Shown: piece by piece, positions 2,822 through 32,106 of the stretch
Layout: the number at the start of each line of letters is the position of its first letter
Numbering within the stretch: position 1 is the stretch's first letter
NCBI GenBank assembly: GCA_023458615.1
Contig: JAEWYV010000282.1
Location: forward strand, 1 to 32,358
Length of the DNA stretch: 32,358 nt
Reading direction: 5' to 3'
From: Bacillota bacterium
GTDB taxonomy: Bacteria; Bacillota; Clostridia; Christensenellales; CAG-138
Notes under the pieces: generated by a model
Databases searched by the model: none
Seen by the model: the letters and a program-made list of their open reading frames with translations, nothing else
Told to the model about the DNA's origin: nothing
Position numbers and translations under genes: made by a program

Positions 2822-4345
2822 ATGAAGAATAGAAGCTATATCGCAATCGACTTAAAATCATTCTATGCTTCGGTCGAGTGTGTGGAACGGGGGCTCGACC
2901 CCTTAACCGCGAACCTTGTCGTTGCGGATATCGGCCGCACTGAAAAAACGATCTGCCTTGCCGTTTCCCCGTCTATGAAGGCATACGGCATTTCCGGCAG
3001 AGCGAGGTTGTTCGAGGTTGTGCAGAAGGTGCGGGAGGTGAATGCCGTGCGGCAGCGTTCAGCCCCGAAACAGGTCTTTACGGGTACTTCCTGCGACGAT
3101 CTGGAATTGAAGGCCTCGCCGCATCTCGCGTTGGACTACATTGTCGCACAGCCAAGAATGGCGCTCTATATCGAATACAGCACGCGGGCTTACAATATCT
3201 ATTTAAAATATATCGCGCCTGAAGATATTCATGTCTACTCCATTGACGAGGTATTCATTGACGCAACCAACTATTTGGAGGCCCATCATCTCTCGGTCTA
3301 CGAGCTTGCCAAGCAGATGGTTCTGGATGTGCTGAATACAATCGGGATTACGGCAACAGCGGGAATCGGCACGAATCTCTACCTGAGCAAGGTCGCGATG
3401 GACATTCAGGCAAAGCACACCTTACCGGACAGTTGCGGTATGCGCATTGCCGAATTGGACGAGATGCGCTATCGTCGCCTTCTATGGTCCCATCGACCCC
3501 TGCGGGATTTTTGGCGCATCGGGGCTGGCTACGCAAAGAAGCTCGAAGAATACGGTCTCTTCACGATGGGGGATATTGCGCGGTGCTCGCTCGGGAAAAT
3601 GTCCGACTATTACAACGAGGCCTTATTGTACAAACTCTTTGGCATCAATGCCGAACTATTGATCGACCATGCGTGGGGATGGGAACCATGCACGATTGCC
3701 GATATCAAAGCGTATAAGCCGAGCACCAACTGCATATGCTCTGGACAGGTGCTGCATGAGGCCTATTCCGCTGACAAAGCGAAACTCATCGTGCGCGAAA
3801 TGGCAGACCAATTGGCACTCGATTTGGTGGATAGACGGCTTGTGACCGACCAAATCGTCCTGACGGTTGGATACGATATTGAAAACCTGACAGACGTACG
3901 GATACGAAACGCATATCATGGAGCGATTGAGGTTGACCACTACGGGCGCTCGACGCCGAAGGCGGCGCACGGAACGGTAAATCTTGGCAGGCGAACCTCT
4001 TCTGCAAAGCTGATTCTGGATGCCGTCACGGAACTGTTTGAACGCACCGTTGACAAGAACCTTTTGGTCAGAAGGGTCAATATCTCGGCGAATCGTGTTG
4101 TCGACGAGGCGACAATGCAAAAGGTAGGCGGCTTTGAACAGCTTGATTTATTTACGGACTATGCGGCTGTGGGGATGAAAAAAGAAGCCGAGGAAACAGA
4201 GCTTGCACGAGAGAAAAGGATGCAACGGGCTATGCTCGAGATCAAGAAAAAGCATGGCAAGAACGCCATTTTACGGGGTATGAATCTGAGGGAAGGCGCG
4301 ACAACGATTGACCGCAACAGCCAGATCGGGGGTCATAAGGCATGA
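2822..4345 (+). CDS. Y-family (ImpB/MucB/SamB, UmuC/UvrX-like) translesion DNA polymerase
   Basis: From the ATG at 2822 the protein reads MKNRSYIAIDLKSFYASVECVERGLDP..., the classic Y-family N-terminus with the catalytic Asp in IDLKSFYASVE, followed by YSIDEVFID. A GGAGAAG ribosome-binding site precedes 2822. The track ORF starts at 2618, but that extension is Arg/Cys-rich and overlaps the promoter. Confidence 0.9.
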   Translation: MKNRSYIAIDLKSFYASVECVERGLDPLTANLVVADIGRTEKTICLAVSPSMKAYGISGRARLFEVVQKVREVNAVRQRSAPKQVFTGTSCDDLELKASPHLALDYIVAQPRMALYIEYSTRAYNIYLKYIAPEDIHVYSIDEVFIDATNYLEAHHLSVYELAKQMVLDVLNTIGITATAGIGTNLYLSKVAMDIQAKHTLPDSCGMRIAELDEMRYRRLLWSHRPLRDFWRIGAGYAKKLEEYGLFTMGDIARCSLGKMSDYYNEALLYKLFGINAELLIDHAWGWEPCTIADIKAYKPSTNCICSGQVLHEAYSADKAKLIVREMADQLALDLVDRRLVTDQIVLTVGYDIENLTDVRIRNAYHGAIEVDHYGRSTPKAAHGTVNLGRRTSSAKLILDAVTELFERTVDKNLLVRRVNISANRVVDEATMQKVGGFEQLDLFTDYAAVGMKKEAEETELAREKRMQRAMLEIKKKHGKNAILRGMNLREGATTIDRNSQIGGHKA

Positions 4346-6132: not shown

Positions 6133-7443
6133 ATGAATATGTCTTTGAAAAAAAGCCTTGCTCTGCTGGCGGCACTCATCATGGTGCTATCGGCACTGAC
6201 GGCATGCGCGGGCACAGCCACGCCCGCAACGGAAGCAACCGCAACGGAAGCGCCTGCTGCAACCGCAGAAGCGACGGCAACCGAAGCGCCCGCCGAGCCG
6301 GAAACGATTGTGTTTTGGCACACCTATAGCGAAGGCGAAGAGCAGATCTTTTTAAACGAGATCGTTCCCGCTTTTGAAGCGGCGAACCCCGGCATCAAGG
6401 TGGATGCGGTTCGCATGCCGGTGGACGGCCTGCAGCAGCAGGTGATCACCGCGGCCTCCGGCGACGCGGCACCCGATGTGATGCGTATGGACATCACCTG
6501 GGTTTCCCAGCTTGGTAAACTCGGCGCTCTGGAACCCCTTTCTTCGTATGACGGGTTCTCTGCGATCAAAGACAACGCCTTGACCGCACCCATGGAGACC
6601 AACTACAGCGCGGGGGATTATTACGGCCTGCCGCTGAACACCAACACGACCGCCGCCGTCTGGAATATGGACTTCCTCAAGGCGTGCGGCCTGAGTGAAC
6701 CGCCGAAGACGCTGGACGAATTGGTTGCTCTGGCGAAGCAGTACAACGACCCCGCCAACGAGAAGTGGGTCTTTACGATTGCCGGAACCTACACCTGGGC
6801 GATGCTGCCGTACTTCTGGTCCCTCGGCGGTAACCTGACCAGCGATGATTACACGGTTGCAACAGGATATCTCAACAGCGATGCTTCCGTTGCGGCGTTG
6901 GATACCATTGCTTCCTGGTACAAGGATGGCGTAATCAGCCCTGCGATCATCGGAGAACAGCCGGATGCATGGGGCGGCATGAGCGCGGGTAACTATGCCA
7001 TGATCTCCGAAGGCCCCTGGTTCTTTAGCTCCAATACGACAACATTTGCCAGCCAGGCGACCGCAATGCCGGCGGGAACCGCGGGCGGGATCTCCGTCGT
7101 TGGCGGCGAAGATATCGTCATGTTTGCAGGCTCCGCGCATAAGACCGCCGCGTGGAAGTTCATGCAGTATATGCTCAGCGACGAAGCACAGCTCGCCATG
7201 ACCAAAGCCGGTATGATCCCGGTGGTTAAGAGCGCAATGGACAAGGTGGACACCAGCGCTTCTCCGTATCTTGCGGCATATTTGGAACAGCTCAAGACCG
7301 CAAAACCGCGCACACCAAACGCCAACTGGGGACAGATCGACACGATCCTTGGTCAGGCATTTGAAACCGTGATCCGCGGCGAAGCGACCGCAAAGGACGC
7401 ACTGGACGCCGCCGCAGCCCAGATTGATCCTCTGCTGAAATAA
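6133..7443 (+). CDS. CUT1-family ABC transporter solute-binding lipoprotein (maltodextrin/alpha-glucoside type)
   Basis: An AGGAGG ribosome-binding site lies 6 nt upstream. The signal peptide plus lipobox is LSALTAC, followed by an ATEATATEAPA low-complexity linker and then a family-1 extracellular solute-binding fold. The operon context is GH13 enzymes. Confidence 0.9.
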   Translation: MNMSLKKSLALLAALIMVLSALTACAGTATPATEATATEAPAATAEATATEAPAEPETIVFWHTYSEGEEQIFLNEIVPAFEAANPGIKVDAVRMPVDGLQQQVITAASGDAAPDVMRMDITWVSQLGKLGALEPLSSYDGFSAIKDNALTAPMETNYSAGDYYGLPLNTNTTAAVWNMDFLKACGLSEPPKTLDELVALAKQYNDPANEKWVFTIAGTYTWAMLPYFWSLGGNLTSDDYTVATGYLNSDASVAALDTIASWYKDGVISPAIIGEQPDAWGGMSAGNYAMISEGPWFFSSNTTTFASQATAMPAGTAGGISVVGGEDIVMFAGSAHKTAAWKFMQYMLSDEAQLAMTKAGMIPVVKSAMDKVDTSASPYLAAYLEQLKTAKPRTPNANWGQIDTILGQAFETVIRGEATAKDALDAAAAQIDPLLK

Positions 7444-25484: not shown

Positions 25485-27002
25485 TCAGGTAGTGGGCTTC
25501 ATGTTCGAATTCTGTATTCGAACCATGTTCCATGAAAACTTTGGCAGGGTTACTGTGATTATATGACCGGAGCATGAAAAATCATTATTCCGGACGGGGA
25601 AAACCGGAGAATGGGTTGCGGTATTAACGGAATCAACTGCGAAGTCACAGAGGGAAACATACTCTGATACGGAGAATGAATCTGGATTCGAAAGAATAAT
25701 TTGACAATCCCGTTGATGCTCCATATCACGGTTTACGAAAAACAGAACGATCTCGTTTTCGTCCTGGGAGAGGATTGCGGCGCCATCGACGTAGGGGATA
25801 GCATCATCGATCGCGCAGGCGTAGGTTGGGGATTCAATCGAGATGCGTATCGAAGTGCCGCGTCCATACCGCGAGGCATACAAAAACGGGTAATAGATGG
25901 TTTGAACCCATGCTTTGCCGCTTGGCTCGGTCATGATCGGAGCAATTGTGTTAACGAGCTGCGCTAAGCACGCGATCTTGACTACGTCCGCGTTGCGCAG
26001 GAGCGCATTTATCATGCAACCAACCAGCAGTGCATCCGCTCCATCGTAGACCTCCTCTTCAATGGCGCGCGGAAACGTCCATTTCTCCGGCATAATGCCG
26101 TCCTTTTGAAAATGATACCAGACGTTCCATTCGTCGAACGAGAGAAATACATCGCGGTCACTGTTTCTTCTCGCCTTCTCTGCGCGGCAAAATTCTGCAA
26201 CTTCGCGGATAAATCCTTCCATCTCAATGCTGCGCGCCAGAAACGAGGGCACGTCGCCATCGTTATTCTGATAATATTGATGCAGAGAAAGATAATCGAT
26301 GTAAGGGTAACAGTGCGTTAGCACTGTTTTTTCCCATGTGCCGAATGTTGGCATGCTCCGATAAGAACTGCCACACGCGACCAATTCAATAGACGGATCA
26401 AGCCACTTCATCATCTTTGCGGTTTCGCAGGCGATTCTGCCATATTCCTCTGCGGTTCTTGCGCAGATCTGCCATGGGCCGTCCATTTCGTTGCCGAGGC
26501 ACCAGAGCTTCACATCGTACGGCTCAGCGTGTCCGTTGGCGCGACGAAGCTCGGCAAAGTGTGTCGGCAGGTTGCCATTGACATATTCCAAAAGGTCACA
26601 GGCACTCTGCGGCGTACCGGTTCCGAGATTGACTCCGAGCATGCCCTGAACACCGAGGCGCTCACACCACTGTAAAAAATCATCTGTACCAACCTGATTT
26701 GGCTCCAAGGCAGACCATGCAAGCTCCGGGCGCACTGGGCGCTTCTCCCTCGGGCCGATGCCGTCCTGCCAATCGTAGCCAGATAGGAAGTTGCCACCGG
26801 GGTAACGGATACAGGAAAGGTTTAGAGGTTGAATGAGTTCTATCACATCTTGACGAAACCCGAACGCATCCGCGCTCTCATGTTCCGGCTCATAAATGCC
26901 CGTATAGACCGCGCGGCCCATGTGCTCGATAAAAGAACTATAGATGCGATCGTCAATCTTGCCAACCTTTTTTTGCAGATCAATTTCGATACGTGTGCTC
27001 AT
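25485..27002 (-). CDS. abfA: GH51 alpha-L-arabinofuranosidase
   Basis: Motifs are DDRIYSSFIEHMGRAVYTGIYEP, IRYPGGNFLSGYDWQDGIGP, acid/base WCLGNEMDGPWQ and nucleophile FLSFDEWNVWY. Together these are the canonical AbfA/GH51 signature. An ATGA overlap joins it to the upstream LacI-family gene. Confidence 0.95.
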   Translation of the reverse strand: MSTRIEIDLQKKVGKIDDRIYSSFIEHMGRAVYTGIYEPEHESADAFGFRQDVIELIQPLNLSCIRYPGGNFLSGYDWQDGIGPREKRPVRPELAWSALEPNQVGTDDFLQWCERLGVQGMLGVNLGTGTPQSACDLLEYVNGNLPTHFAELRRANGHAEPYDVKLWCLGNEMDGPWQICARTAEEYGRIACETAKMMKWLDPSIELVACGSSYRSMPTFGTWEKTVLTHCYPYIDYLSLHQYYQNNDGDVPSFLARSIEMEGFIREVAEFCRAEKARRNSDRDVFLSFDEWNVWYHFQKDGIMPEKWTFPRAIEEEVYDGADALLVGCMINALLRNADVVKIACLAQLVNTIAPIMTEPSGKAWVQTIYYPFLYASRYGRGTSIRISIESPTYACAIDDAIPYVDGAAILSQDENEIVLFFVNRDMEHQRDCQIILSNPDSFSVSEYVSLCDFAVDSVNTATHSPVFPVRNNDFSCSGHIITVTLPKFSWNMVRIQNSNMKPTT

Positions 27003-28042
27003 GCATGTCTCCCTGAACCAAGCGAGGACTCGCGCTCAATGATGGAACACTCCAACAATATTTCGTGCTCGGCGGGCAAGCCTTTGCCGGAGAGAATATC
27101 CAGCATGATGTGCGCGGCCTTTTGGCCAATCTCGAAAAGGGGCAAGGCAACGGTAGAGAGCTGCGGACGGCACACGGTTGAAATCTCGCGGTTGTCGAAT
27201 CCGATTAACAGGATATCCTTGCCAACCTCAATTCCGTTTGCGTTACAGTAGTCTATCACGCCCGTCGCCATTAGGTCGTTATGCGCAAAGATTGCTGTTG
27301 CGCCGCTCTTAATCAACTGCTCGCCGAGCGTATACCCACAGTCACGCCCCCAATCTCCAACCAATGTCAGAGAAGGATTGTATGGGACTTTGTGCGCAAA
27401 AAGCGCCTCCTGATGCCCGCGCGTGCGATTGTAGGAATGGCTGCTGTCGGCTGGACCCGCGATCATGCCAATCACGCGCCCTCCCGCGCGGATCAATCGC
27501 TCCGTCGCTTCAAAAGCGGCTTTCTTGTCGTCGTAAATAACGGACGGGATGGAGGAATCCAGACTGGTGCAGTATGCGCAGACAAACTGCGGTTCTGGAT
27601 GATTGGAGAGCGAAACGACCACGTGGCTGTGGCAGCCGATATAGATAATGCCGTCTACCTGCTTAGAGAGCATTTCGTCCACGACGCCGTGTACAAGCTC
27701 TGTGCTCTCTTCCAAATCCTTAGGGCCGTTCCCGTAACGTTTGAAAAAGCGTAGGTTGCCTAATATATAGTGATATCCTGCTTCATCGCAGGCGGCTGCA
27801 ATGCCGTCCACGATTTCCGGTGCATTAAAAACGGTCAGATCTTCCGTCACAATGCCAAGCGTTTGGCTCCTGCCGCTCTTTAGGTAACGGGCGTTGAGAT
27901 TGGGGCGGTAGTTTAATTCGCGCGCGGCTTCCATCACCAACTGTCTGGTTTCGGCATTCACGCCGTGCTTATCGTTGAGCACCTTGCTCACGGTGGCTAT
28001 GGATACGCCGGTGCGTTCCGAGATCTCCCGAATCGTTGCCAT
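26999..28042 (-). CDS. LacI-family transcriptional regulator (arabinofuranoside locus)
   Basis: From the ATG at 28042 the helix-turn-helix reads MATIREISERTGVSIATVSKVLNDKHGV. The track ORF extension to 28261 covers the promoter region and has no regulator-like sequence. The gene is co-transcribed with abfA. Confidence 0.9.
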   Translation of the reverse strand: MATIREISERTGVSIATVSKVLNDKHGVNAETRQLVMEAARELNYRPNLNARYLKSGRSQTLGIVTEDLTVFNAPEIVDGIAAACDEAGYHYILGNLRFFKRYGNGPKDLEESTELVHGVVDEMLSKQVDGIIYIGCHSHVVVSLSNHPEPQFVCAYCTSLDSSIPSVIYDDKKAAFEATERLIRAGGRVIGMIAGPADSSHSYNRTRGHQEALFAHKVPYNPSLTLVGDWGRDCGYTLGEQLIKSGATAIFAHNDLMATGVIDYCNANGIEVGKDILLIGFDNREISTVCRPQLSTVALPLFEIGQKAAHIMLDILSGKGLPAEHEILLECSIIERESSLGSGRHA

Positions 28043-28081
28043 ACTCGCTTCTCTTTCCGTTCCAAACGACTCTAGATCGTT

Positions 28082-28110
28082 TTTATACTTACATGTTAAA
28101 CGTTGTACAA
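28082..28110 (-). promoter_or_regulatory. Candidate promoter of the lacI-abfA operon with an overlapping LacI-type operator (site A)
   Basis: The minus strand reads TTGTAC, 17 nt, then TATAAA. The operator-like 16-mer TGTTAAACGTTGTACA (28094..28109, 6 of 8 palindromic pairs, central AACGTT) overlaps the -35 and spacer. Confidence 0.4.
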
Positions 28111-28204
28111 TCGGAAAGCAAGCGGTTTTTAGGGTTTCCGCCTGTTTCACCATCGTTTCAAGGGCGAATCTTGAAAAATATTTTGCAAATTTCAGGGAAA
28201 GGGC

Positions 28205-28256
28205 TTTACAAACCATTTTCGAGTGCAGTATAGTAACGATATCAAAGAAAACGTTT
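28205..28256 (+). promoter_or_regulatory. Candidate GH127 promoter plus operator site B
   Basis: TTTACA (28205..28210), an 18-nt spacer, then TATAGT (28229..28234). GAAAACGTTT lies at 28247..28256, just downstream of the predicted transcription start. Confidence 0.45.
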
Positions 28257-28308
28257 AACACATTTCATCAAATATGCACTTAATTCAGTTCAATAATCGC
28301 TAAATAAC

Positions 28309-28318
28309 GAAAACGTTT
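28309..28318 (+). promoter_or_regulatory. Operator site C (GAAAACGTTT) in the GH127 leader
   Basis: This 10-mer is identical to those at 28247 and 30383. It ends 23 nt before the GH127 ATG. Confidence 0.45.
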
Positions 28319-28341
28319 AGCATGATAAGGAAGACCAGAGC

Positions 28342-30336
28342 ATGGCTAATAAACTGCGCCCGTCGAACATTCAGAAGATTGAAATTACGGATCCCTTGTT
28401 TGGGAGATATGTCTCTATGATTGCGGAGGCAATTCTTCCATATCAGTGGATGGCACTCAATGGAGGCGTCGACATCTCCGATTCGGATCAGTGGGAAGCG
28501 CTTAACGGTCGTGTCACGGACGAACGAGTTTCCAGCTGCATCGATAATTTTCGAATCGCTGCAGGGGAAAAACAGGGGGTGCATTCCGGCGCCGTGTTTC
28601 AGGATACGGACGCGTATAAGTGGCTGGAAGCCGCGGCGTACTGCATTCAAATTGGAAAAGGGGATAGCCTTCGGCAGAATGCGGATGAGCTGATTGCTCT
28701 GATCGAACACGCGCAGCAGCCGGATGGTTACCTCAACACGTTCTTTACCATTGCGGACCCCGCACATCGTTGGAAGAACCTCGCAGAAGGACATGAGCTC
28801 TATTGCGCGGGGCACCTGATCGAAGCAGCGGTGGCATACTATTACGCAACTGGAACGGATCAGTTGCTGGAAGTCGCAAAGCGCTTTGCTGACCTGATTG
28901 CAACTGTGTTCGGGCCAGAGGAAGGCAAATGCAAGGGGTATCCAGGTCATCAGGAAATTGAACTTGCACTCGTGAAGCTGTATCGCGTGACCCGTGAAAA
29001 CCGATATCTGGATCTGGCAAAATACTTTTTAAGTGAACGCGGAAAAGCGCCAAACTATCTGATTCAAGAGATGGAGACGACCAAGGATTTCCGGCTGTTT
29101 CCGGAGTTTTCTCATTATGACGCGGAGTATGCGCAGACGCATCTTTCGCCAATTGAACAGACAACGGCGGAAGGACATGCCGTTCGCGCTGTTTATATGT
29201 ATTCTGCGATGGCGGATCTTGCCAAGGAATGCGACGACGAAAAGATGAAGCAGGCCTGCAAGGCGCTATGGGATAACATTACGACTAAGCGGATGTACAT
29301 CACGGGAGGCATCGGCTCTTCGGGACTGCTTGAGCGATTTACAGTGGATTACGATCTGCCAAATGACCGCATGTATTGTGAATCCTGCGCTTCCATCGGA
29401 CTGATGATGTTTGGCCAACGAATGAATCTGCTGACGAGGGACGCTTCCTATTACGATGTTGTAGAACGCGCACTTTACAACACCGTTCTTGCAGGCATTT
29501 CGGCAAATGGGGATCGCTATTTTTATGTCAATCCGCTGGAGGTGTGGCCGGATAACTGCAAGCCTTCCACCTCGATGTCGCATGTAAAGCCTGTTCGTCA
29601 GGAATGGTTTTCCTGCGCTTGCTGCCCCCCGAATATCGCGCGGACACTGGCCTCTGTCGGTCAGTATATCTATTCGGAAGATGATAAATCCGTCTATATC
29701 AATCAATTTATCTCTTCCAAAATGCAAACGTCGATTGCGGGAACGGACATTGCGATCGGCCTGAATGCCAGCTACTTGAAAGACGGGTGCGTACGCATAA
29801 CGGTCGGCAGCTCCTCCGCTCATCCGTTCACGGTTCGTGTACGCATCCCGTCCTACCTGAAGAATTCCGCATTTCTGTTGGAGCAGACCGAAATCACGCC
29901 TGTAGTTGAAAACGGTTATGCGGTGCTCGCCGTCTCCCGCGCGGGAGAGCAAACATTTACACTGCGCGGACTGGTTGAGCCGGAATTCTTCGCCGCGAAT
30001 GACCAGGTACGCGCCGATATCGGCAAGCTAGCGCTTATGTTTGGCCCGTTTGTGTATTGTCTTGAGGAAGCCGACAATGGAAAGAACCTTGCAAATGTGT
30101 TCGTCAAACTGGATTCCGAAATTGAAAAGAAGATACCGCTGGCAGGGTTACCGGGCGACATGCCGATGCTCGGCTTAAACGGAGAACGGCTGATCCGCAC
30201 GACGGATCAAGCGGGCTCGCTCTATGCTGCGCCAAAGTTTGAAAAGACGAAGGCACCGCTGACTGCAATTCCGTATTGCCTCTGGTGCAATCGCGAACCG
30301 GGCGAGATGCTTGTTTGGATGAAGGCAAGTCTTTAA
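28342..30336 (+). CDS. GH127 beta-L-arabinofuranosidase (DUF1680, HypBA1-like)
   Basis: The size of 664 aa fits the family, and the N-terminus carries FGRY...PYQW. The Glu/Cys cluster YCESCAS and the CACCPPNIAR motif correspond to the Zn-Cys3-Glu site and Cys nucleophile described for Bifidobacterium HypBA1. An AAGGAAG ribosome-binding site is present. Confidence 0.92.
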   Translation: MANKLRPSNIQKIEITDPLFGRYVSMIAEAILPYQWMALNGGVDISDSDQWEALNGRVTDERVSSCIDNFRIAAGEKQGVHSGAVFQDTDAYKWLEAAAYCIQIGKGDSLRQNADELIALIEHAQQPDGYLNTFFTIADPAHRWKNLAEGHELYCAGHLIEAAVAYYYATGTDQLLEVAKRFADLIATVFGPEEGKCKGYPGHQEIELALVKLYRVTRENRYLDLAKYFLSERGKAPNYLIQEMETTKDFRLFPEFSHYDAEYAQTHLSPIEQTTAEGHAVRAVYMYSAMADLAKECDDEKMKQACKALWDNITTKRMYITGGIGSSGLLERFTVDYDLPNDRMYCESCASIGLMMFGQRMNLLTRDASYYDVVERALYNTVLAGISANGDRYFYVNPLEVWPDNCKPSTSMSHVKPVRQEWFSCACCPPNIARTLASVGQYIYSEDDKSVYINQFISSKMQTSIAGTDIAIGLNASYLKDGCVRITVGSSSAHPFTVRVRIPSYLKNSAFLLEQTEITPVVENGYAVLAVSRAGEQTFTLRGLVEPEFFAANDQVRADIGKLALMFGPFVYCLEEADNGKNLANVFVKLDSEIEKKIPLAGLPGDMPMLGLNGERLIRTTDQAGSLYAAPKFEKTKAPLTAIPYCLWCNREPGEMLVWMKASL

Positions 30337-30365
30337 GAATTAAAAATCACAAACACAAATCAGAT

Positions 30366-30394
30366 AGTACTTCTAGTACTTCGAAAACGTTTTC
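30366..30394 (+). promoter_or_regulatory. Composite operator-like element: AGTACTTC direct repeat plus a perfect 12-bp palindrome GAAAACGTTTTC
   Basis: AGTACTTC lies at 30366..30373 and again at 30375..30382, and each copy contains the AGTACT palindrome. The perfect palindrome GAAAACGTTTTC (30383..30394) follows immediately and contains the same 10-mer as sites B and C. Confidence 0.5.
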
Positions 30395-30402
30395 TATGTT
30401 TC

Positions 30403-30670
30403 TATCAGCGGCAGGAAGTTGCTGGGACGCTCATGTGTCTGCGGCATCGACCGCAGGCGCGCCAAAGGTCAGCTTTTCAGTTTATATCAGCGGCAGGAAG
30501 CTGCTATGATGCTCTTTTGTCTGCGGCATCGACCGCGGACACGCCAAAGATCGGATTTTTCGTTTCTATCAGCGGCAGGAAGTTGCTGGGACGCTCATGT
30601 GTCTGCGGCATCGACCGCAGGCGCACCAAAGTTCAGCTTTTCAGTTTATATCAGCGGCAGGAAGTTGCTG
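30403..30670 (+). repeat. Tandem array of 82-bp repeats: three full units plus a 22-bp partial fourth
   Basis: Units start at 30403, 30485, 30567 and 30649, each with TATCAGCGGCAGGAAG. Units 1 and 3 differ at 2 of 82 positions, and unit 2 differs from unit 1 at 15 of 82. Each unit contains the hairpin CTGCGG-CATCGA-CCGCAG. The partial fourth unit runs into TATAAT (30671..30676). Confidence 0.95.
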
Positions 30671-30702
30671 TATAATAAATAAAATAAGGAAGGGAATTGG
30701 AA

Positions 30703-32106
30703 ATGAAAACCAAGAAGTTACTTGCTCTGCTGCTTTGTGCCATGATGGTTTCCGCCCTGTTCGCATGTGCACAACCCGCAGCCCCCACAACCAAAGAACC
30801 CGCCGCAGAAGCAACCGCAGCCCCGGCAGCGGAAGCGACCGAAGCAGCCCCCGCGGAGAAGATCACACTCACCTTCTCACTCTGGGGAGATCCTGCAGAG
30901 CAGGAAACGACACAGAAAGCACTCGACGTATATAATAATTCGCAGGACAAAGTATATGTCAAGGCGCTGCAGATTGGGCGTGACGAGTACAACGAAAAGC
31001 TCCAGACCATGGCAACCGCGGGCGAGATGCCGGATTGCGGCATGGTTGCGGAAGATACCGTGATCGCATGGGCAAGAGACGGCCTGCTGTCGGATGTGGA
31101 TATCTATGCCGGTCAGGAAAACCTGCCACTGGATTATCTTGCATTCAAGTACAATGGCAAGACCGTTGCGTACTCCTCTGCCAACGAAGTTCTCGCTCTG
31201 TGGTACAACAAAGCGATGTTTGACGCAGCGGGAATTCCCTATCCGTCCGCAACCCTTGATAACGCATGGACTTGGGATCAGTTTGTTGAAGTTGCGAAAA
31301 AGCTGACCATCGACGCCAACGGCAAGCACCCGGGGGAAGATGGATTTAACAAGGACAATATCGTTCAGTACGGCGCTTATGTGAACCAGTATACCTGGCA
31401 GCTTGAGGTATGGGCGCTCTCCAATGGTGGCAAGTTCTTCTCGCCGGATGGCAAGTCCATCGTATTTGACGATGCAGCAATCGAAGCAATTCAAAAGGTT
31501 GTTGACCTCCATTTGGTTGACAACGTAGCTCCGCTGAATGACGGCACGCAGGATAACGGCTTTGCAAGCTCTGTTGGAGCCGGCAACGTTGCAATGTGCA
31601 CCGAAGGCCAGTGGGCGACTGGATTCCGCGCGGGCTTGGACGGCATCGACTATGGTGTTGCCGTACTGCCCTACATGAAGGACAAAGTGACCATCGCGAC
31701 AGGCGGCCCGACGGGCGTGTTTGCCACGACGAAGTATCCGCAGGAAGCAGCCGATTTCCTCAGATGGTATAACAGCGAAGAGAATAACATCGGTACGATC
31801 ATGGCTGGCTGGTGGATGCCTACAAAGCAAAACTGGTATATCGACGAAACACTGCTTAAGTCCTGGGTGGACGATTGCGAACTCCGCGCGGCACTCCCGG
31901 CGGATGCCTATAAGACGGCTATCGTGGATGTTGCGTTGGATACCAATGTGACCCATCAGACCGCATGGTACTACACACCCAACACGTTTGAAGTGCTGAC
32001 AAAGACGCTGCAGCCAGCGCTTGTGGAAGCAATCAACGGCAGTAAGACGGTGAAGGAAGTCATTGACTCCGTTCGCGATGCAATGCAGGCGGCGCTCAGC
32101 AAATAA
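30703..32106 (+). CDS. CUT1-family ABC transporter solute-binding lipoprotein (arabino-oligosaccharide type by context)
   Basis: The ATG at 30703 has an AAGGAAGGG ribosome-binding site about 9 nt upstream. The track ORF begins at an in-frame TTG at 30697. The lipobox is SALFAC, followed by a PAAEATAAPAAEATEAAPAE linker and a family-1 solute-binding fold. Confidence 0.9.
   Translation: MKTKKLLALLLCAMMVSALFACAQPAAPTTKEPAAEATAAPAAEATEAAPAEKITLTFSLWGDPAEQETTQKALDVYNNSQDKVYVKALQIGRDEYNEKLQTMATAGEMPDCGMVAEDTVIAWARDGLLSDVDIYAGQENLPLDYLAFKYNGKTVAYSSANEVLALWYNKAMFDAAGIPYPSATLDNAWTWDQFVEVAKKLTIDANGKHPGEDGFNKDNIVQYGAYVNQYTWQLEVWALSNGGKFFSPDGKSIVFDDAAIEAIQKVVDLHLVDNVAPLNDGTQDNGFASSVGAGNVAMCTEGQWATGFRAGLDGIDYGVAVLPYMKDKVTIATGGPTGVFATTKYPQEAADFLRWYNSEENNIGTIMAGWWMPTKQNWYIDETLLKSWVDDCELRAALPADAYKTAIVDVALDTNVTHQTAWYYTPNTFEVLTKTLQPALVEAINGSKTVKEVIDSVRDAMQAALSK

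What the first reader, a model, noticed from the sequence alone, without database searches (positions are those of the whole stretch)
30366..30676. 82-bp tandem repeat array (about 3.3 copies, in an A-B-A pattern) between the GH127 gene and the binding-protein gene, ending in a TATAAT box
Seen in sequence:
- Units begin at 30403, 30485, 30567 and 30649.
- Units 1 and 3 are 80/82 identical. Unit 2 is 67/82 identical to unit 1. This suggests a recent duplication of a 164-bp double unit.
- The invariant cores are TATCAGCGGCAGGAAG and TGTCTGCGGCATCGACCGC.
- Each unit carries the hairpin CTGCGG-CATCGA-CCGCAG. In unit 2 the A-to-G change in the 3' arm converts a U-A pair to U-G rather than breaking it, which is compatible with selection on RNA structure.
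- Units 1 and 3 contain the palindrome GGCGCGCC or a near copy.
- The truncated fourth unit fuses to TATAAT (30671..30676), 27 nt upstream of the ATG at 30703.
- The array is preceded by the AGTACTTC x2 plus GAAAACGTTTTC operator-like element.
- I see no terminator after the GH127 gene, so the array may also be transcribed as a 360-nt intercistronic RNA.

It is not a CRISPR array because there are no unique spacers, and it is not a coding repeat because the ORFs across it are frame-independent echoes of the repeat. I do not recognise it as a known riboswitch, REP or RAT element.

Possibilities are iterated binding sites for an activator or repressor spaced about 8 helical turns apart, an RNA processing or stability module, or a copy-number-variable tuner of transporter expression.
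Basis: seen in the sequence. Interest (0 to 1): 0.6.

Follow-up and report, generated by a model that had tools for sequence, protein, structure and literature searches.

The report
Amplified leader hairpin repeat before transporter
The 82-bp repeat is real: it is a species-variable tandem amplification of the hairpin/promoter segment in front of a sugar-transporter binding-protein gene, most likely a cis-acting RNA leader module that tunes expression, which makes it a modest variant of known regulatory minisatellites.

Summary
Observation confirmed. The array is 82 bp x 3.3 copies at 30398-30670, with an A-B-A pattern (80/82 and 67/82 identity). It is non-coding, has no Rfam match, and occurs only at this locus.

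Homologous arrays (81-83 bp, 2.0-3.3 copies) sit at the same GH127->SBP junction in 4 other Christensenellaceae species. Close relatives have a single copy. Distant orthologues have only a short spacer holding a conserved hairpin, TTTATAC...GTATAAT.

Each unit is the 5' half of that hairpin/promoter (HP1, AGGAA loop), then an extended -10-like motif, then a 9-bp GC hairpin (HP2). The internal units are under purifying selection. The HP2 5' arm is 100 % identical, against 61 % at neutral four-fold sites and 46 % in the loop. All stem changes are wobble-compatible on the + strand only (fold z -4.35 versus -0.53).

Rejected: CsrA sponge (CsrA absent in 40/40 genomes), CRISPR, terminator, operator array, coding repeat, dispersed element.

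Best reading (about 0.5): a + strand-transcribed leader/intercistronic hairpin array that adjusts SBP-operon mRNA fate, with copy number as an evolvable knob. The same genome has at least 8 other promoter-proximal minisatellites.

The parts
28342..30336 (+). GH127 beta-L-arabinofuranosidase gene, upstream cistron
   Evidence: Pfam PF07944/PF20737/PF20736, E 2.7e-108. No terminator-like site follows it.
28247..28320 (.). Two LacI-type operators (GAAAACGTTT at 28247 and 28309) in the LacI/GH127 divergent control region
   Evidence: Pattern search. AAAACGTTT lies before GH127 in all 8 species examined.
30365..30382 (+). TAGTACTTC x2 direct repeat (contains the AGTACT palindromes)
   Evidence: TRF. 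Predicted weak hairpin. Not conserved in relatives.
30383..30394 (.). Third LacI-type operator, perfect palindrome GAAAACGTTTTC, abutting unit 1
   Evidence: The same operator-promoter junction is seen in single-copy metagenomic alleles L146/L148 and in G022.
30398..30670 (+). 82-bp tandem array, 3.3 copies (units at 30403, 30485, 30567; partial unit from 30649)
   Evidence: TRF score 420. Identities 80/82 and 67/82. Covariance-model hits of 89-92 bits per unit.
30406..30424 (+). HP1 copy 1 (CAGCGGC-AGGAA-GUUGCUG). Further copies at 30488-30506, 30570-30588 and 30652-30670 (terminal).
   Evidence: Fold -9.4 kcal/mol, z -3.8. Loop and stem 81-82 % identical between species versus 61 % neutral.
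30436..30459 (+). HP2 copy 1 (UGUCUGCGG-CAUCGA-CCGCAGGCG). Further copies at 30518-30541 and 30600-30623.
   Evidence: Fold -15 to -17 kcal/mol, z -3.9 to -5.5. 97 % of cells paired. 5' arm 100 % identical and loop 46 % identical between species.
30481..30510 (+). Good sigma-70-like promoter inside unit 2 (TTTATA-18-TGc-TATGAT). The predicted start is flush with HP2 of unit 2.
   Evidence: consensus match only.
30645..30676 (+). Ancestral terminal element. TTTATA (30645-30650) pairs with TATAAT (30671-30676) around HP1. It is both a candidate -10 promoter and a conserved hairpin.
   Evidence: Identical in 9 or more species. The hairpin is conserved in distant orthologues with compensatory inner-stem changes.
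30686..30694 (+). Shine-Dalgarno AAGGAAGGG. It shares AGGAAG with the HP1 loop.
   Evidence: Sequence. Invariant in 9 species.
30703..32106 (+). Lipoprotein solute-binding protein gene (SBP_bac_1), first gene of a CUT1 ABC operon
   Evidence: Pfam PF01547, E 2.4e-27. In G035 it is followed by two permeases and a DUF624 gene.
30645..30780 (+). Island of 95-100 % nucleotide identity across species (promoter/hairpin, leader, first 26 codons)
   Evidence: Four-fold sites are 0.95 identical here versus 0.61 in the rest of the gene. No significant fold explains it.

Best explanation
The array is a cis-regulatory minisatellite. It arose by tandem amplification of the 5' half of the hairpin/promoter element that precedes the SBP gene in this whole family, together with about 55 nt that carries a strong GC hairpin (HP2).

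It is transcribed on the + strand. Transcription would come from read-through from the LacI-controlled GH127 promoter (no terminator intervenes), from promoter copies inside the units, or from both. Window unit 2 has a good promoter. Units in the other species keep an extended -10-like TGnRATGCT motif 4-5 nt before HP2.

In the RNA, each unit presents two hairpins: HP1, with an SD-like AGGAA(G) loop, and HP2. These would act as processing barriers or 5'/intercistronic stabilisers. They would set how much SBP-operon mRNA survives relative to GH127. The number of units, which changes easily by recombination between repeats, would then work as an evolvable gain control.

Shown:
- the anatomy of the unit;
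- homology of the arrays across species;
- purifying selection on the hairpin stems;
- + strand specificity of the pairing;
- restriction to one locus;
- rapid gain and loss.

Inferred:
- that the array is transcribed;
- that the hairpins affect mRNA stability or processing;
- that copy number changes expression.
For: - Homology: arrays of 81-83 bp x 2.0-3.3 copies lie at the same GH127->SBP junction in G035, G022, G015 and G024. Two of these are single-contig chromosomes.
- Common ending: all arrays end in the same TATATCAGCnGCAGGAAGTTGCTG|TATAAT...SD segment, which is also present as a single copy in 8 other alleles.
- Selection on internal units: between-species identity is 1.00 for the HP2 5' arm, 0.80 for the 3' arm and 0.82 for HP1. 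It is 0.46 for the HP2 loop and 0.43-0.50 for the flanks. Four-fold degenerate sites of the SBP gene are 0.61 identical.
- Pairing: all HP2 stem variation sits at partners of U (U-A <-> U-G). 93.8 % of cells are paired versus 24-56 % in slid registers.
- Strand: the + strand folds at -126 kcal/mol, z -4.35. The - strand folds at -95 kcal/mol, z -0.53.
- Terminal hairpin: in distant orthologues it keeps pairing through double-sided changes (AA/UU -> GG/CC, A-U -> G-C, CAG/CUG) with loops of 4-15 nt.
- Read-through is possible: no terminator follows GH127.
- Geometry: the -10-like motif lies at a fixed 4-5 nt from the HP2 stem in all units, so a transcript started there would begin flush with the hairpin.
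- Parallel case: array C1:7087-7223 (47 bp x 2.9, hairpin units) lies between an upstream gene and the SD of another SBP gene, with no room for a promoter. It is also copy-variable in the genus.
Against:
- HP1 and HP2 show no double-compensatory covariation, only one-sided wobble-type changes. The shuffle control is uninformative.
- 11 of the 18 HP2 stem positions would tolerate a transition, so the wobble pattern alone is weak statistically.
- The terminal HP1 lies upstream of a perfect TATAAT. If that is the main promoter, the terminal HP1 is not in the main transcript.
- The HP1 loop is as conserved as its stem, which points to sequence-specific recognition by a partner that has not been identified.
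- Close relatives do without the array, so it is dispensable.
- In G015 a MITE-like insertion separates GH127 from the array.
Confidence: 0.5

Rival explanations
1. Tandem promoter array acting mainly at the DNA level. Each unit is a working copy of the SBP promoter (-35-like TTTATA, HP1 as spacer, extended -10). The array simply multiplies transcription initiation, and the hairpins are incidental or serve only as 5' caps.
For: - Window unit 2 scores as a good promoter, TTTATA-18-TGcTATGAT.
- All internal units of G035, G022, G015 and G024 keep TGn + RATSMT with invariant A2 and T6.
- The unit is derived from the real promoter region.
Against: - Internal hexamers match only 2-3 of 6 positions (GATGCT, AATGCT, GACGCT), with 3/6 -35 elements.
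- Between-species conservation of the -10-like linker (0.71) is barely above neutral (0.61), whereas the HP2 stem is invariant. Selection therefore targets the hairpin more than the promoter copy.
Confidence: 0.2
2. Iterated DNA binding sites. HP1 and/or HP2 are palindromic operators for a transcription factor, and the repeats give cooperative or decoy binding.
For: - Both cores are inverted repeats.
- The HP1 loop sequence is conserved like a recognition site.
- HP1 occupies the promoter spacer in all single-copy alleles.
- Other arrays in this genome do multiply operator-like motifs.
Against: - The only dedicated regulator at the locus is LacI. Its operator, GAAAACGTTT, is different and is absent from the units.
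- Neither core occurs at any other locus in 40 genomes, so no regulon exists.
- As DNA, HP1 is symmetric at only 5 of 7 positions.
- HP2 is imperfect as DNA (CTGCGG/CCGCGG) in half of the units, while pairing as RNA is kept.
- HP2 arm spacing varies between 5 and 6 nt.
- The arms of the terminal inverted repeat are 10-18 nt apart in different orthologues.
Confidence: 0.1
3. Functionless by-product. This lineage readily makes tandem duplications of short intergenic segments. The array persists by drift, and its cores look conserved because of homogenisation with the selected terminal copy.
For: - The genome has at least 12 non-coding arrays of 45-150-bp units.
- Array presence is patchy on the SBP tree: sister taxa G015 and G017 differ, with 99/99 support.
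- Units are homogenised within species (0.85 versus 0.69 identity).
- Edge units decay (G024 u1, G035 u1).
Against: HP2 has no selected terminal template, yet its 9-nt 5' arm is invariant in 12 units of 5 species whose neutral sites are only 61 % identical. Its loop and flanks, in the same units, have diverged to 43-50 % identity.
Confidence: 0.12
4. Independent trans-acting multi-hairpin RNA (CsrB/RsmZ-like sponge) that presents GGA loops.
For: The HP1 loop region reads CAGGAAG, which from memory is the same as the CsrB repeat consensus. There are three to four copies per array.
Against: - CsrA (PF02599) is absent from 40 of 40 genomes of the genus, and the positive controls rang.
- There is no terminator at the array's end. 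It runs directly into the SD of the SBP gene.
- Close relatives have a single copy.
Confidence: 0.03
5. Assembly artefact in this MAG (wrong copy number or a spurious duplication).
For: The genome is a fragmented MAG (307 contigs, 80 % complete), and reads could not be inspected.
Against: - Homologous arrays occur in four other assemblies, including two single-contig chromosomes.
- The three units differ from each other at 2-16 positions, which lets an assembler place them.
Confidence: 0.03

Closest known systems
Intercistronic/5'-terminal stem-loop mRNA stabilisers and processing determinants in operons (own knowledge: REP hairpins in malE-malF; cggR-gapA and saePQRS RNase Y maturation; ermC/aprE 5' stem-loops; STAB-SD of cry3A)
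   Same: - GC-rich hairpins sit in an untranslated stretch between two co-oriented cistrons, next to AU-rich single-stranded stretches.
- An SD-like sequence (AGGAAG) is displayed away from the start codon.
- The expected effect is differential abundance of the SBP segment.
   Different: - The module here is tandemly amplified (2-3 units) and copy-variable between species.
- It is unique to one locus.
- It is derived from the promoter region itself.
- No cleavage or stability data exist for it.
MIRU-type intercistronic VNTRs of mycobacteria (own knowledge)
   Same: Tandem units of 46-101 bp lie in intergenic regions inside operons, oriented with transcription, with copy number varying between strains or species.
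   Different: - MIRUs are one sequence family dispersed over about 40 loci, with small ORFs that overlap the flanking genes.
- This unit occurs at a single locus.
- It has no conserved ORF.
- It carries conserved hairpins.
Promoter-region VNTRs that modulate expression, e.g. the 8-bp clbR-clbB VNTR of E. coli (PMC7364221) and promoter repeats in Mycoplasma hyopneumoniae (PMC5179023). Both were seen only in the search listing and were not read.
   Same: A tandem repeat between a regulator's site and a promoter, with variable copy number.
   Different: - Those units are short (a few bp) and act by spacing or phase variation.
- Here the unit is 82 bp and carries its own structured elements and promoter copy.
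CsrB/RsmZ protein-sponge RNAs
   Same: Repeated hairpins with GGA-containing loops (CAGGAAG).
   Different: - The genus has no CsrA.
- This is not a separate gene with its own terminator.
- The array is contiguous with an mRNA leader.
BOX/REP/ERIC/MITE-type dispersed intergenic repeats
   Same: Modular, hairpin-forming, intergenic elements that may affect neighbouring gene expression.
   Different: This unit is not dispersed. Full units are found at one locus only, in 5 of 40 genomes.

Membership tests
CRISPR array | Short direct repeats separated by unique spacers of similar length | tested here: not met
   Units are contiguous 82-mers with no unique spacers.
CsrB/RsmZ-type sponge RNA | Multiple hairpins with GGA in the loop | tested here: met
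   HP1 has an AGGAA pentaloop and is present 4 times in the window.
CsrB/RsmZ-type sponge RNA | CsrA/RsmA partner encoded in the genome | tested here: not met
   PF02599 is absent from 40 of 40 genomes of the genus. Controls in E. coli, B. subtilis and T. maritima were positive.
CsrB/RsmZ-type sponge RNA | Separate RNA gene with its own terminator | tested here: not met
   There is no terminator-like site. The array runs into the SD and ATG of the SBP gene.
Dispersed repeat families (REP/BIME, BOX, MITE, MIRU) | Many copies of the same unit at different loci of one genome | tested here: not met
   BLAST, pattern and covariance-model searches of the own genome, 40 genomes of the genus and 300 of the order find full units only at this locus.
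Intrinsic terminator | GC-rich hairpin followed directly by a U tract | tested here: not met
   HP2 is followed by GC-rich or variable sequence. The nearest T-rich stretch is 13 nt or more away and is not conserved.
RAT / PRD-antiterminator target | About 29-nt RAT hairpin overlapping a terminator, with a BglG/LicT-type protein in the operon | tested here: not met
   No terminator overlaps HP1 or HP2. The only CAT_RBD/PRD gene seen (G035) belongs to the next, PTS operon. Similarity to the RAT consensus was judged from memory only.
Known Rfam families (riboswitches, leaders, sRNAs) | Match to a curated covariance model | tested here: not met
   cmscan of 29800-31200 on both strands found no match up to E = 10.
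LacI-operator array | The local repressor's operator motif inside each unit | tested here: not met
   AAAnCGnTT occurs at 28248, 28310 and 30384 but not inside 30398-30670.
Sigma-70 tandem promoters | -35 and -10 hexamers with 16-18 nt spacing in each unit | tested here: inconclusive
   The terminal copy has a perfect TATAAT with a weak -35. Window unit 2 is good (TTTATA-18-TATGAT with TGn). The other units have only extended -10-like motifs matching 2-3 of 6 positions. Consensus matches are not activity.
5'-terminal stem-loop mRNA stabiliser | Hairpin within a few nt of the mapped 5' end, with a measurable effect on half-life | not testable with these tools
   This needs TSS or processing-site mapping and decay assays. 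Only the geometry is compatible: the -10-like motif lies 4-5 nt before the HP2 stem.
Sigma-54 promoter | GG-N10-GC (-24/-12) with conserved GG | tested here: not met
   HP1 reads GG-N9-GC, and the GG is AG in G022, G014, G015, G024 and G004. Judged by eye against the consensus from memory.
Coding tandem repeat | Open frame conserved across homologous arrays | tested here: not met
   82 is not a multiple of 3. The arrays of G035, G022 and G024 carry 1-7 stops in each + frame.

The most novel reading that the evidence does not exclude
HP1 and HP2 units form a cis-acting multi-hairpin platform read by a loop-specific partner, either the 30S subunit through the SD-like AGGAAG or an unknown RNA-binding protein that replaces CsrA in this CsrA-less lineage. 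Christensenellaceae would then systematically evolve gene expression by amplifying and collapsing short regulatory modules genome-wide, including leader hairpins, operators and terminators. That would be a distinct, copy-number-based mode of regulatory evolution in bacteria.
Probability: 0.15. Interest if true: 0.7.

Novelty: new variant of a known kind. Interest (0 to 1): 0.45.

Why it matters
If copy number sets SBP-operon output, this is a natural allelic series. Alleles with 0, 1, 2 and 3 extra units exist in closely related species. Such a series shows how bacteria can tune expression of a glycan-uptake system by expanding and collapsing a structured leader/promoter module, without changing any regulator.

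The same 2-Mb genome holds at least eight other promoter-proximal minisatellites built from operators, terminators or leader hairpins. Modular amplification may therefore be a general route of regulatory evolution in this poorly studied, mostly uncultured family.

In practice such arrays are also likely sites of assembly error and strain-level length polymorphism.

The underlying ingredients are all known: hairpin stabilisers, tandem promoters and regulatory VNTRs. A specialist would find this interesting but not astonishing.

Tried and rejected
- Rfam (evalue mode, E <= 10) on 29800-31200: nothing.
- CsrA sponge: rejected, because no CsrA occurs in 40 of 40 genomes.
- Dispersed element or regulon site: rejected by BLAST, pattern and covariance-model searches. 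The 20-26-bit hits outside the genus are at chance level.
- Terminator, RAT, sigma-54, CRISPR and coding repeat: each failed a defining feature (some by eye).
- Search for true covariation in HP1 and HP2: none, only one-sided changes, and the shuffle control was uninformative.
- SBP tree to test for a single origin: poorly resolved. It shows only that array and single-copy states are interspersed. The first tree was distorted by the long G004 branch.
- Metagenome scan with the terminal junction: only 3 further alleles, all single-copy.
- RNA fold of the ultra-conserved island: not significant.
- First regex for the terminal palindrome was wrong. The corrected one still mis-anchored four rows, which I read by eye.
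- A second literature search failed on syntax. The first returned only short-unit promoter VNTR examples.
- Origin of the 55-nt HP2 segment: unresolved. It is absent from single-copy alleles and from the rest of the genomes.
Full report
OBSERVATION

Tandem Repeats Finder reports a single array at 30398-30670 with period 82, 3.3 copies and score 420. The fourth unit matches for 22 nt and then runs into TATAAT (30671-30676), which lies 26 nt before the ATG at 30703. The cores, the CTGCGG-CATCGA-CCGCAG hairpin, GGCGCGCC, the TAGTACTTC x2 repeat and the GAAAACGTTTTC palindrome are all present. No terminator-like site follows the GH127 gene.

CONTEXT

The window comes from a Christensenellaceae/Christensenellales MAG of 2.0 Mb, 307 contigs and 80 % completeness. 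The locus reads as follows:
- LacI-family regulator (-)
- GH127 beta-L-arabinofuranosidase (+, 28342-30336)
- the array
- a lipoprotein solute-binding protein of a CUT1 ABC transporter (+, 30703-32106)

In the complete genome G035 the SBP gene is followed by two permeases and a DUF624 gene. After that comes an unrelated BglG/PTS unit. The LacI-type operator GAAAACGTTT lies twice in the LacI/GH127 control region (28247, 28309) and once directly against unit 1 (30383). AAAACGTTT precedes GH127 in all eight species examined, but an SBP-proximal operator exists only in some of them.

THE ARRAY IS CONSERVED AS AN ARRAY, AT ONE LOCUS ONLY

The unit is unique within its own genome. Homologous arrays lie at the same GH127->SBP junction in four other species of the genus:
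- G035: 83 bp x 3.3
- G022: 81 bp x 2.4
- G015: 81 bp x 2.0
- G024: 82 bp x 3.1

G035 and G022 are single-contig chromosomes. A covariance model built from 12 internal units finds full units nowhere else in 40 genomes of the genus. In 300 genomes of the order it finds only chance-level hits. Pattern searches for either hairpin give only this locus plus generic GC hairpins or coding matches. Rfam gives nothing up to E = 10.

WHAT THE UNIT IS MADE OF

All five arrays end in the same sequence, TATATCAGCnGCAGGAAGTTGCTG|TATAATAAATAAA..AAGGAAGGGAATTGGAAATG. That terminal segment occurs as a single copy, with no array and no HP2, in these close relatives:
- G034, G030, G014, G017 and G004
- three metagenomic alleles

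In two of the metagenomic alleles the operator sits 4 nt before TTTATA, exactly as at the window's unit 1.

More distant SBP orthologues (53-83 % identity) have only a short GH127-SBP spacer. It contains TTTATAC-N(10-18)-GTATAA(T/A) followed by the SD.

Each repeat unit therefore has four parts:
- the 5' half of this ancestral element: the -35-like TTTATA plus HP1, CAGCGGC-AGGAA-GUUGCUG;
- an extended -10-like TGnRATGCT motif;
- HP2, UGUCUGCGG(C)-loop-(G)CCGCAGGCG;
- a variable tail.

The last partial unit plus TATAAT is the original element. It is not a fusion.

THE ANCESTRAL ELEMENT IS A HAIRPIN AS WELL AS A PROMOTER-LIKE SITE

TTTATAC and GTATAA are reverse complements. The three positions inside them pair in about 90 % of distinct orthologue sequences, against about 40 % in slid registers (with four mis-anchored rows corrected by eye). 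There are double-sided changes in three lineages:
- AA/UU -> GG/CC in the L033 group
- A-U -> G-C in the window's clade
- a re-written CAG/CUG in L036

Loop lengths range from 4 to about 15 nt. The predicted hairpins fold at -9 to -14 kcal/mol with z about -4. The modal TTTATA-to-TATAAT spacing is 16-17 nt, which fits a sigma-70 promoter. In the window's clade the spacing is 20 nt, and elsewhere it is 12-15 nt. Both constraints seem to act on this element.

SELECTION ON THE INTERNAL UNITS

Four-fold degenerate sites of the SBP gene are only 61 % identical between the five array-bearing species (range 48-72 %). I use that figure as the neutral benchmark. Between-species identity within the internal units is as follows:

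| Segment | Identity |
|---|---|
| HP2 5' arm | 100 % |
| HP2 3' arm | 80 % |
| HP1 stem | 82 % |
| HP1 loop | 81 % |
| linker | 71 % |
| HP2 loop | 46 % |
| 5' flank | 43 % |
| 3' tail | 50 % |

HP2 has no copy in the selected terminal segment, so homogenisation against a functional template cannot explain its invariance. The hairpin stem itself is under purifying selection.

STRAND AND STRUCTURE

RNAalifold predicts both hairpins. In total, 93.8 % of cells form standard pairs, against 24-56 % in slid registers. All variable HP2 stem positions are the 3' partners of U and toggle between A and G, that is U-A <-> U-G. HP1 carries two G-U pairs. As a result the + strand RNA folds far better than chance (-126 kcal/mol, z -4.35), while the - strand does not (-95 kcal/mol, z -0.53).

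As double-stranded DNA the palindromes are imperfect. HP1 is symmetric at 5 of 7 positions, and HP2 reads CTGCGG/CCGCGG in half of the units. This favours a + strand RNA role.

There are caveats. HP1 and HP2 show no double-compensatory change, and the shuffle control is uninformative. In addition, 11 of the 18 HP2 stem positions would tolerate a transition. The structural case is good but not proven.

DYNAMICS

Every unit's nearest neighbour is in its own array, with 0.85 identity within species against 0.69 between species. Edge units are the most decayed (G024 u1, G035 u1). On an SBP gene tree the array and single-copy states are interspersed. G015 (array) and G017 (single copy) are sisters with 99/99 support, and the tree needs 3-4 changes. 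The HP2 segment is clearly homologous in all arrays, so the simplest history is one origin followed by repeated collapse and re-expansion. Recombination between the repeated promoter halves would delete the array precisely and restore the single-copy allele (inference).

PROMOTER COPIES

The terminal element has a perfect TATAAT with a weak -35. Window unit 2 has a good promoter, TTTATA-18-TGcTATGAT (30481-30510). All internal units of the other four species keep TGn plus a 3/6 hexamer with invariant A2 and T6, always 4-5 nt before the HP2 stem. A transcript started there would begin flush with the hairpin. From my own knowledge, that is the geometry of protective 5' stem-loops in Firmicutes. 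These are consensus matches only.

REJECTED IDENTITIES

- CsrB-like sponge: the HP1 loop region CAGGAAG resembles a CsrA site, but CsrA is absent from all 40 genomes while the controls were positive.
- Terminator: no U tract follows the hairpin.
- Operator array: the LacI motif is absent from the units.
- Coding repeat: the other arrays have stops in all frames.
- CRISPR, RAT and sigma-54 also fail defining features (see the membership table).

GENOME-WIDE CONTEXT

TRF on the whole 2.0-Mb assembly finds at least 12 non-coding arrays with 45-150-bp units, and at least 8 of them end within about 90 nt of a gene start. They are built from recognisable regulatory modules:
- LacI/cre-like operators (C139, C274, and C15 in front of a LacI gene)
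- hairpin-plus-T-run terminators (C161, C183)
- in C1:7087-7223, a 47-bp x 2.9 array of GCCGAAAGGC hairpin units

The C1 array lies between an upstream co-oriented gene and the SD of another SBP gene, with no room for a promoter after the array. It is copy-variable in the genus too, with 1-2 units in relatives. The 82-bp array is thus one instance of a recurrent habit of this genome. The closest parallel is again a hairpin array in a transcribed SBP leader.

MOST LIKELY MECHANISM (confidence about 0.5)

The array is a + strand-transcribed leader/intercistronic module. Transcription would come from the LacI-controlled GH127 promoter by read-through, from promoter copies in the units, or from both. 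Each unit adds a strong GC hairpin and an SD-like-loop hairpin, separated by AU-rich single-stranded stretches. These would act as processing barriers and 5'/intercistronic stabilisers, or as 30S-binding 'STAB-SD'-like sites. They would set the abundance of the SBP-operon mRNA relative to GH127. Copy number, easily changed by recombination, would tune the effect.

The array also moves the strong terminal -10 about 246 bp away from operator O3. This could loosen LacI control of the transporter (inference).

Shown: anatomy, homology, selection on the stems, strand specificity, locus restriction and rapid turnover. Inferred: transcription, an effect on mRNA fate, and dose dependence.

Rivals and my weights:
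- a DNA-level tandem promoter array (0.2)
- a neutral by-product of a duplication-prone genome (0.12)
- iterated transcription-factor sites (0.1)
- a trans-acting sponge RNA (0.03)
- an assembly artefact affecting copy number only (0.03)

LIMITS

There is therefore no transcript evidence and no read-level check of the copy number in this MAG. The origin of the HP2 segment is unresolved. So is the cause of the 95-100 % identity island at 30645-30780, where four-fold sites are 0.95 identical against 0.61 elsewhere and no significant fold was found.

VERDICT

This is a real, conserved, selected and locus-specific regulatory minisatellite. It is a new variant of known kinds (regulatory VNTRs, leader/intercistronic hairpin stabilisers, tandem promoters) and not a new class. 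Interest is moderate.

Noticed in passing
window 30645-30780: Island of 95-100 % nucleotide identity across at least 9 species. It covers the promoter/hairpin, the leader, the SD and the first 26 codons (lipoprotein signal peptide MKTKKLLALLLCAMMVSALFAC). Four-fold sites are 0.95 identical here versus 0.61 in the rest of the gene. No significant RNA fold and no paralogous copy explains it.
   Followed up: partly
own genome: C1:7087-7223, C139:3149-3330, C274:6014-6159, C15:5576-5689, C161:3249-3486, C183:1382-1649, C287:587-779, C115:5800-6039, C228:1370-1528: At least 12 non-coding tandem arrays (45-150-bp units, 2-4 copies) in a 2-Mb draft genome, with at least 8 ending within about 90 nt of a gene start. 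Units carry operator-like palindromes, terminator-like hairpins or leader hairpins. This suggests a lineage-wide tendency to amplify short regulatory modules.
   Followed up: partly
own genome C1:7052-7300: A 47-bp x 2.9 array of GCCGAAAGGC (GNRA-loop) hairpin units lies between a 228-aa gene and the SD of a second SBP lipoprotein gene (CUT2-like operon). Relatives have 1-2 units.
   Followed up: partly
L018 (G015) 3413-3548: A 136-bp MITE-like insertion with 27-bp terminal inverted repeats (GCGGGCGGATAATATCCGCCCCTACAA) lies directly against the left edge of that species' array. It replaces the first HP1.
   Followed up: no
L143 (G017) 3321-3375 and 7230-7290: In G017 a second ABC operon (SBP, two permeases, DUF624) is inserted between GH127 and the SBP orthologue. 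Its SBP has its own HP1-type element (CAGCGGCAGGAAGCAGCTG + TATAGA), about 80 % identical to the terminal segment.
   Followed up: partly
L032, L042, L045, L058 (distant orthologues), about 10-45 nt before the SBP start: A second small inverted repeat, AATAC-GAGGAAAGAAG-GTATA, places the Shine-Dalgarno sequence in a hairpin loop just downstream of the main TTTATAC...GTATAAT hairpin.
   Followed up: no
window 26999-28261 (-): The LacI-family ORF as listed (420 aa from GTG) has its HTH only from residue 76, whereas the G035 orthologue is 347 aa with the HTH at residue 3. The true start is probably about 73 codons further in, which enlarges the divergent control region holding the two operators.
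   Followed up: no
window 30419-30682 (+): An 80-94-aa open frame runs through the array, which means the unit lacks stops in nearly all three + frames. It is not conserved in the other species, so it is a chance or compositional effect.
   Followed up: yes
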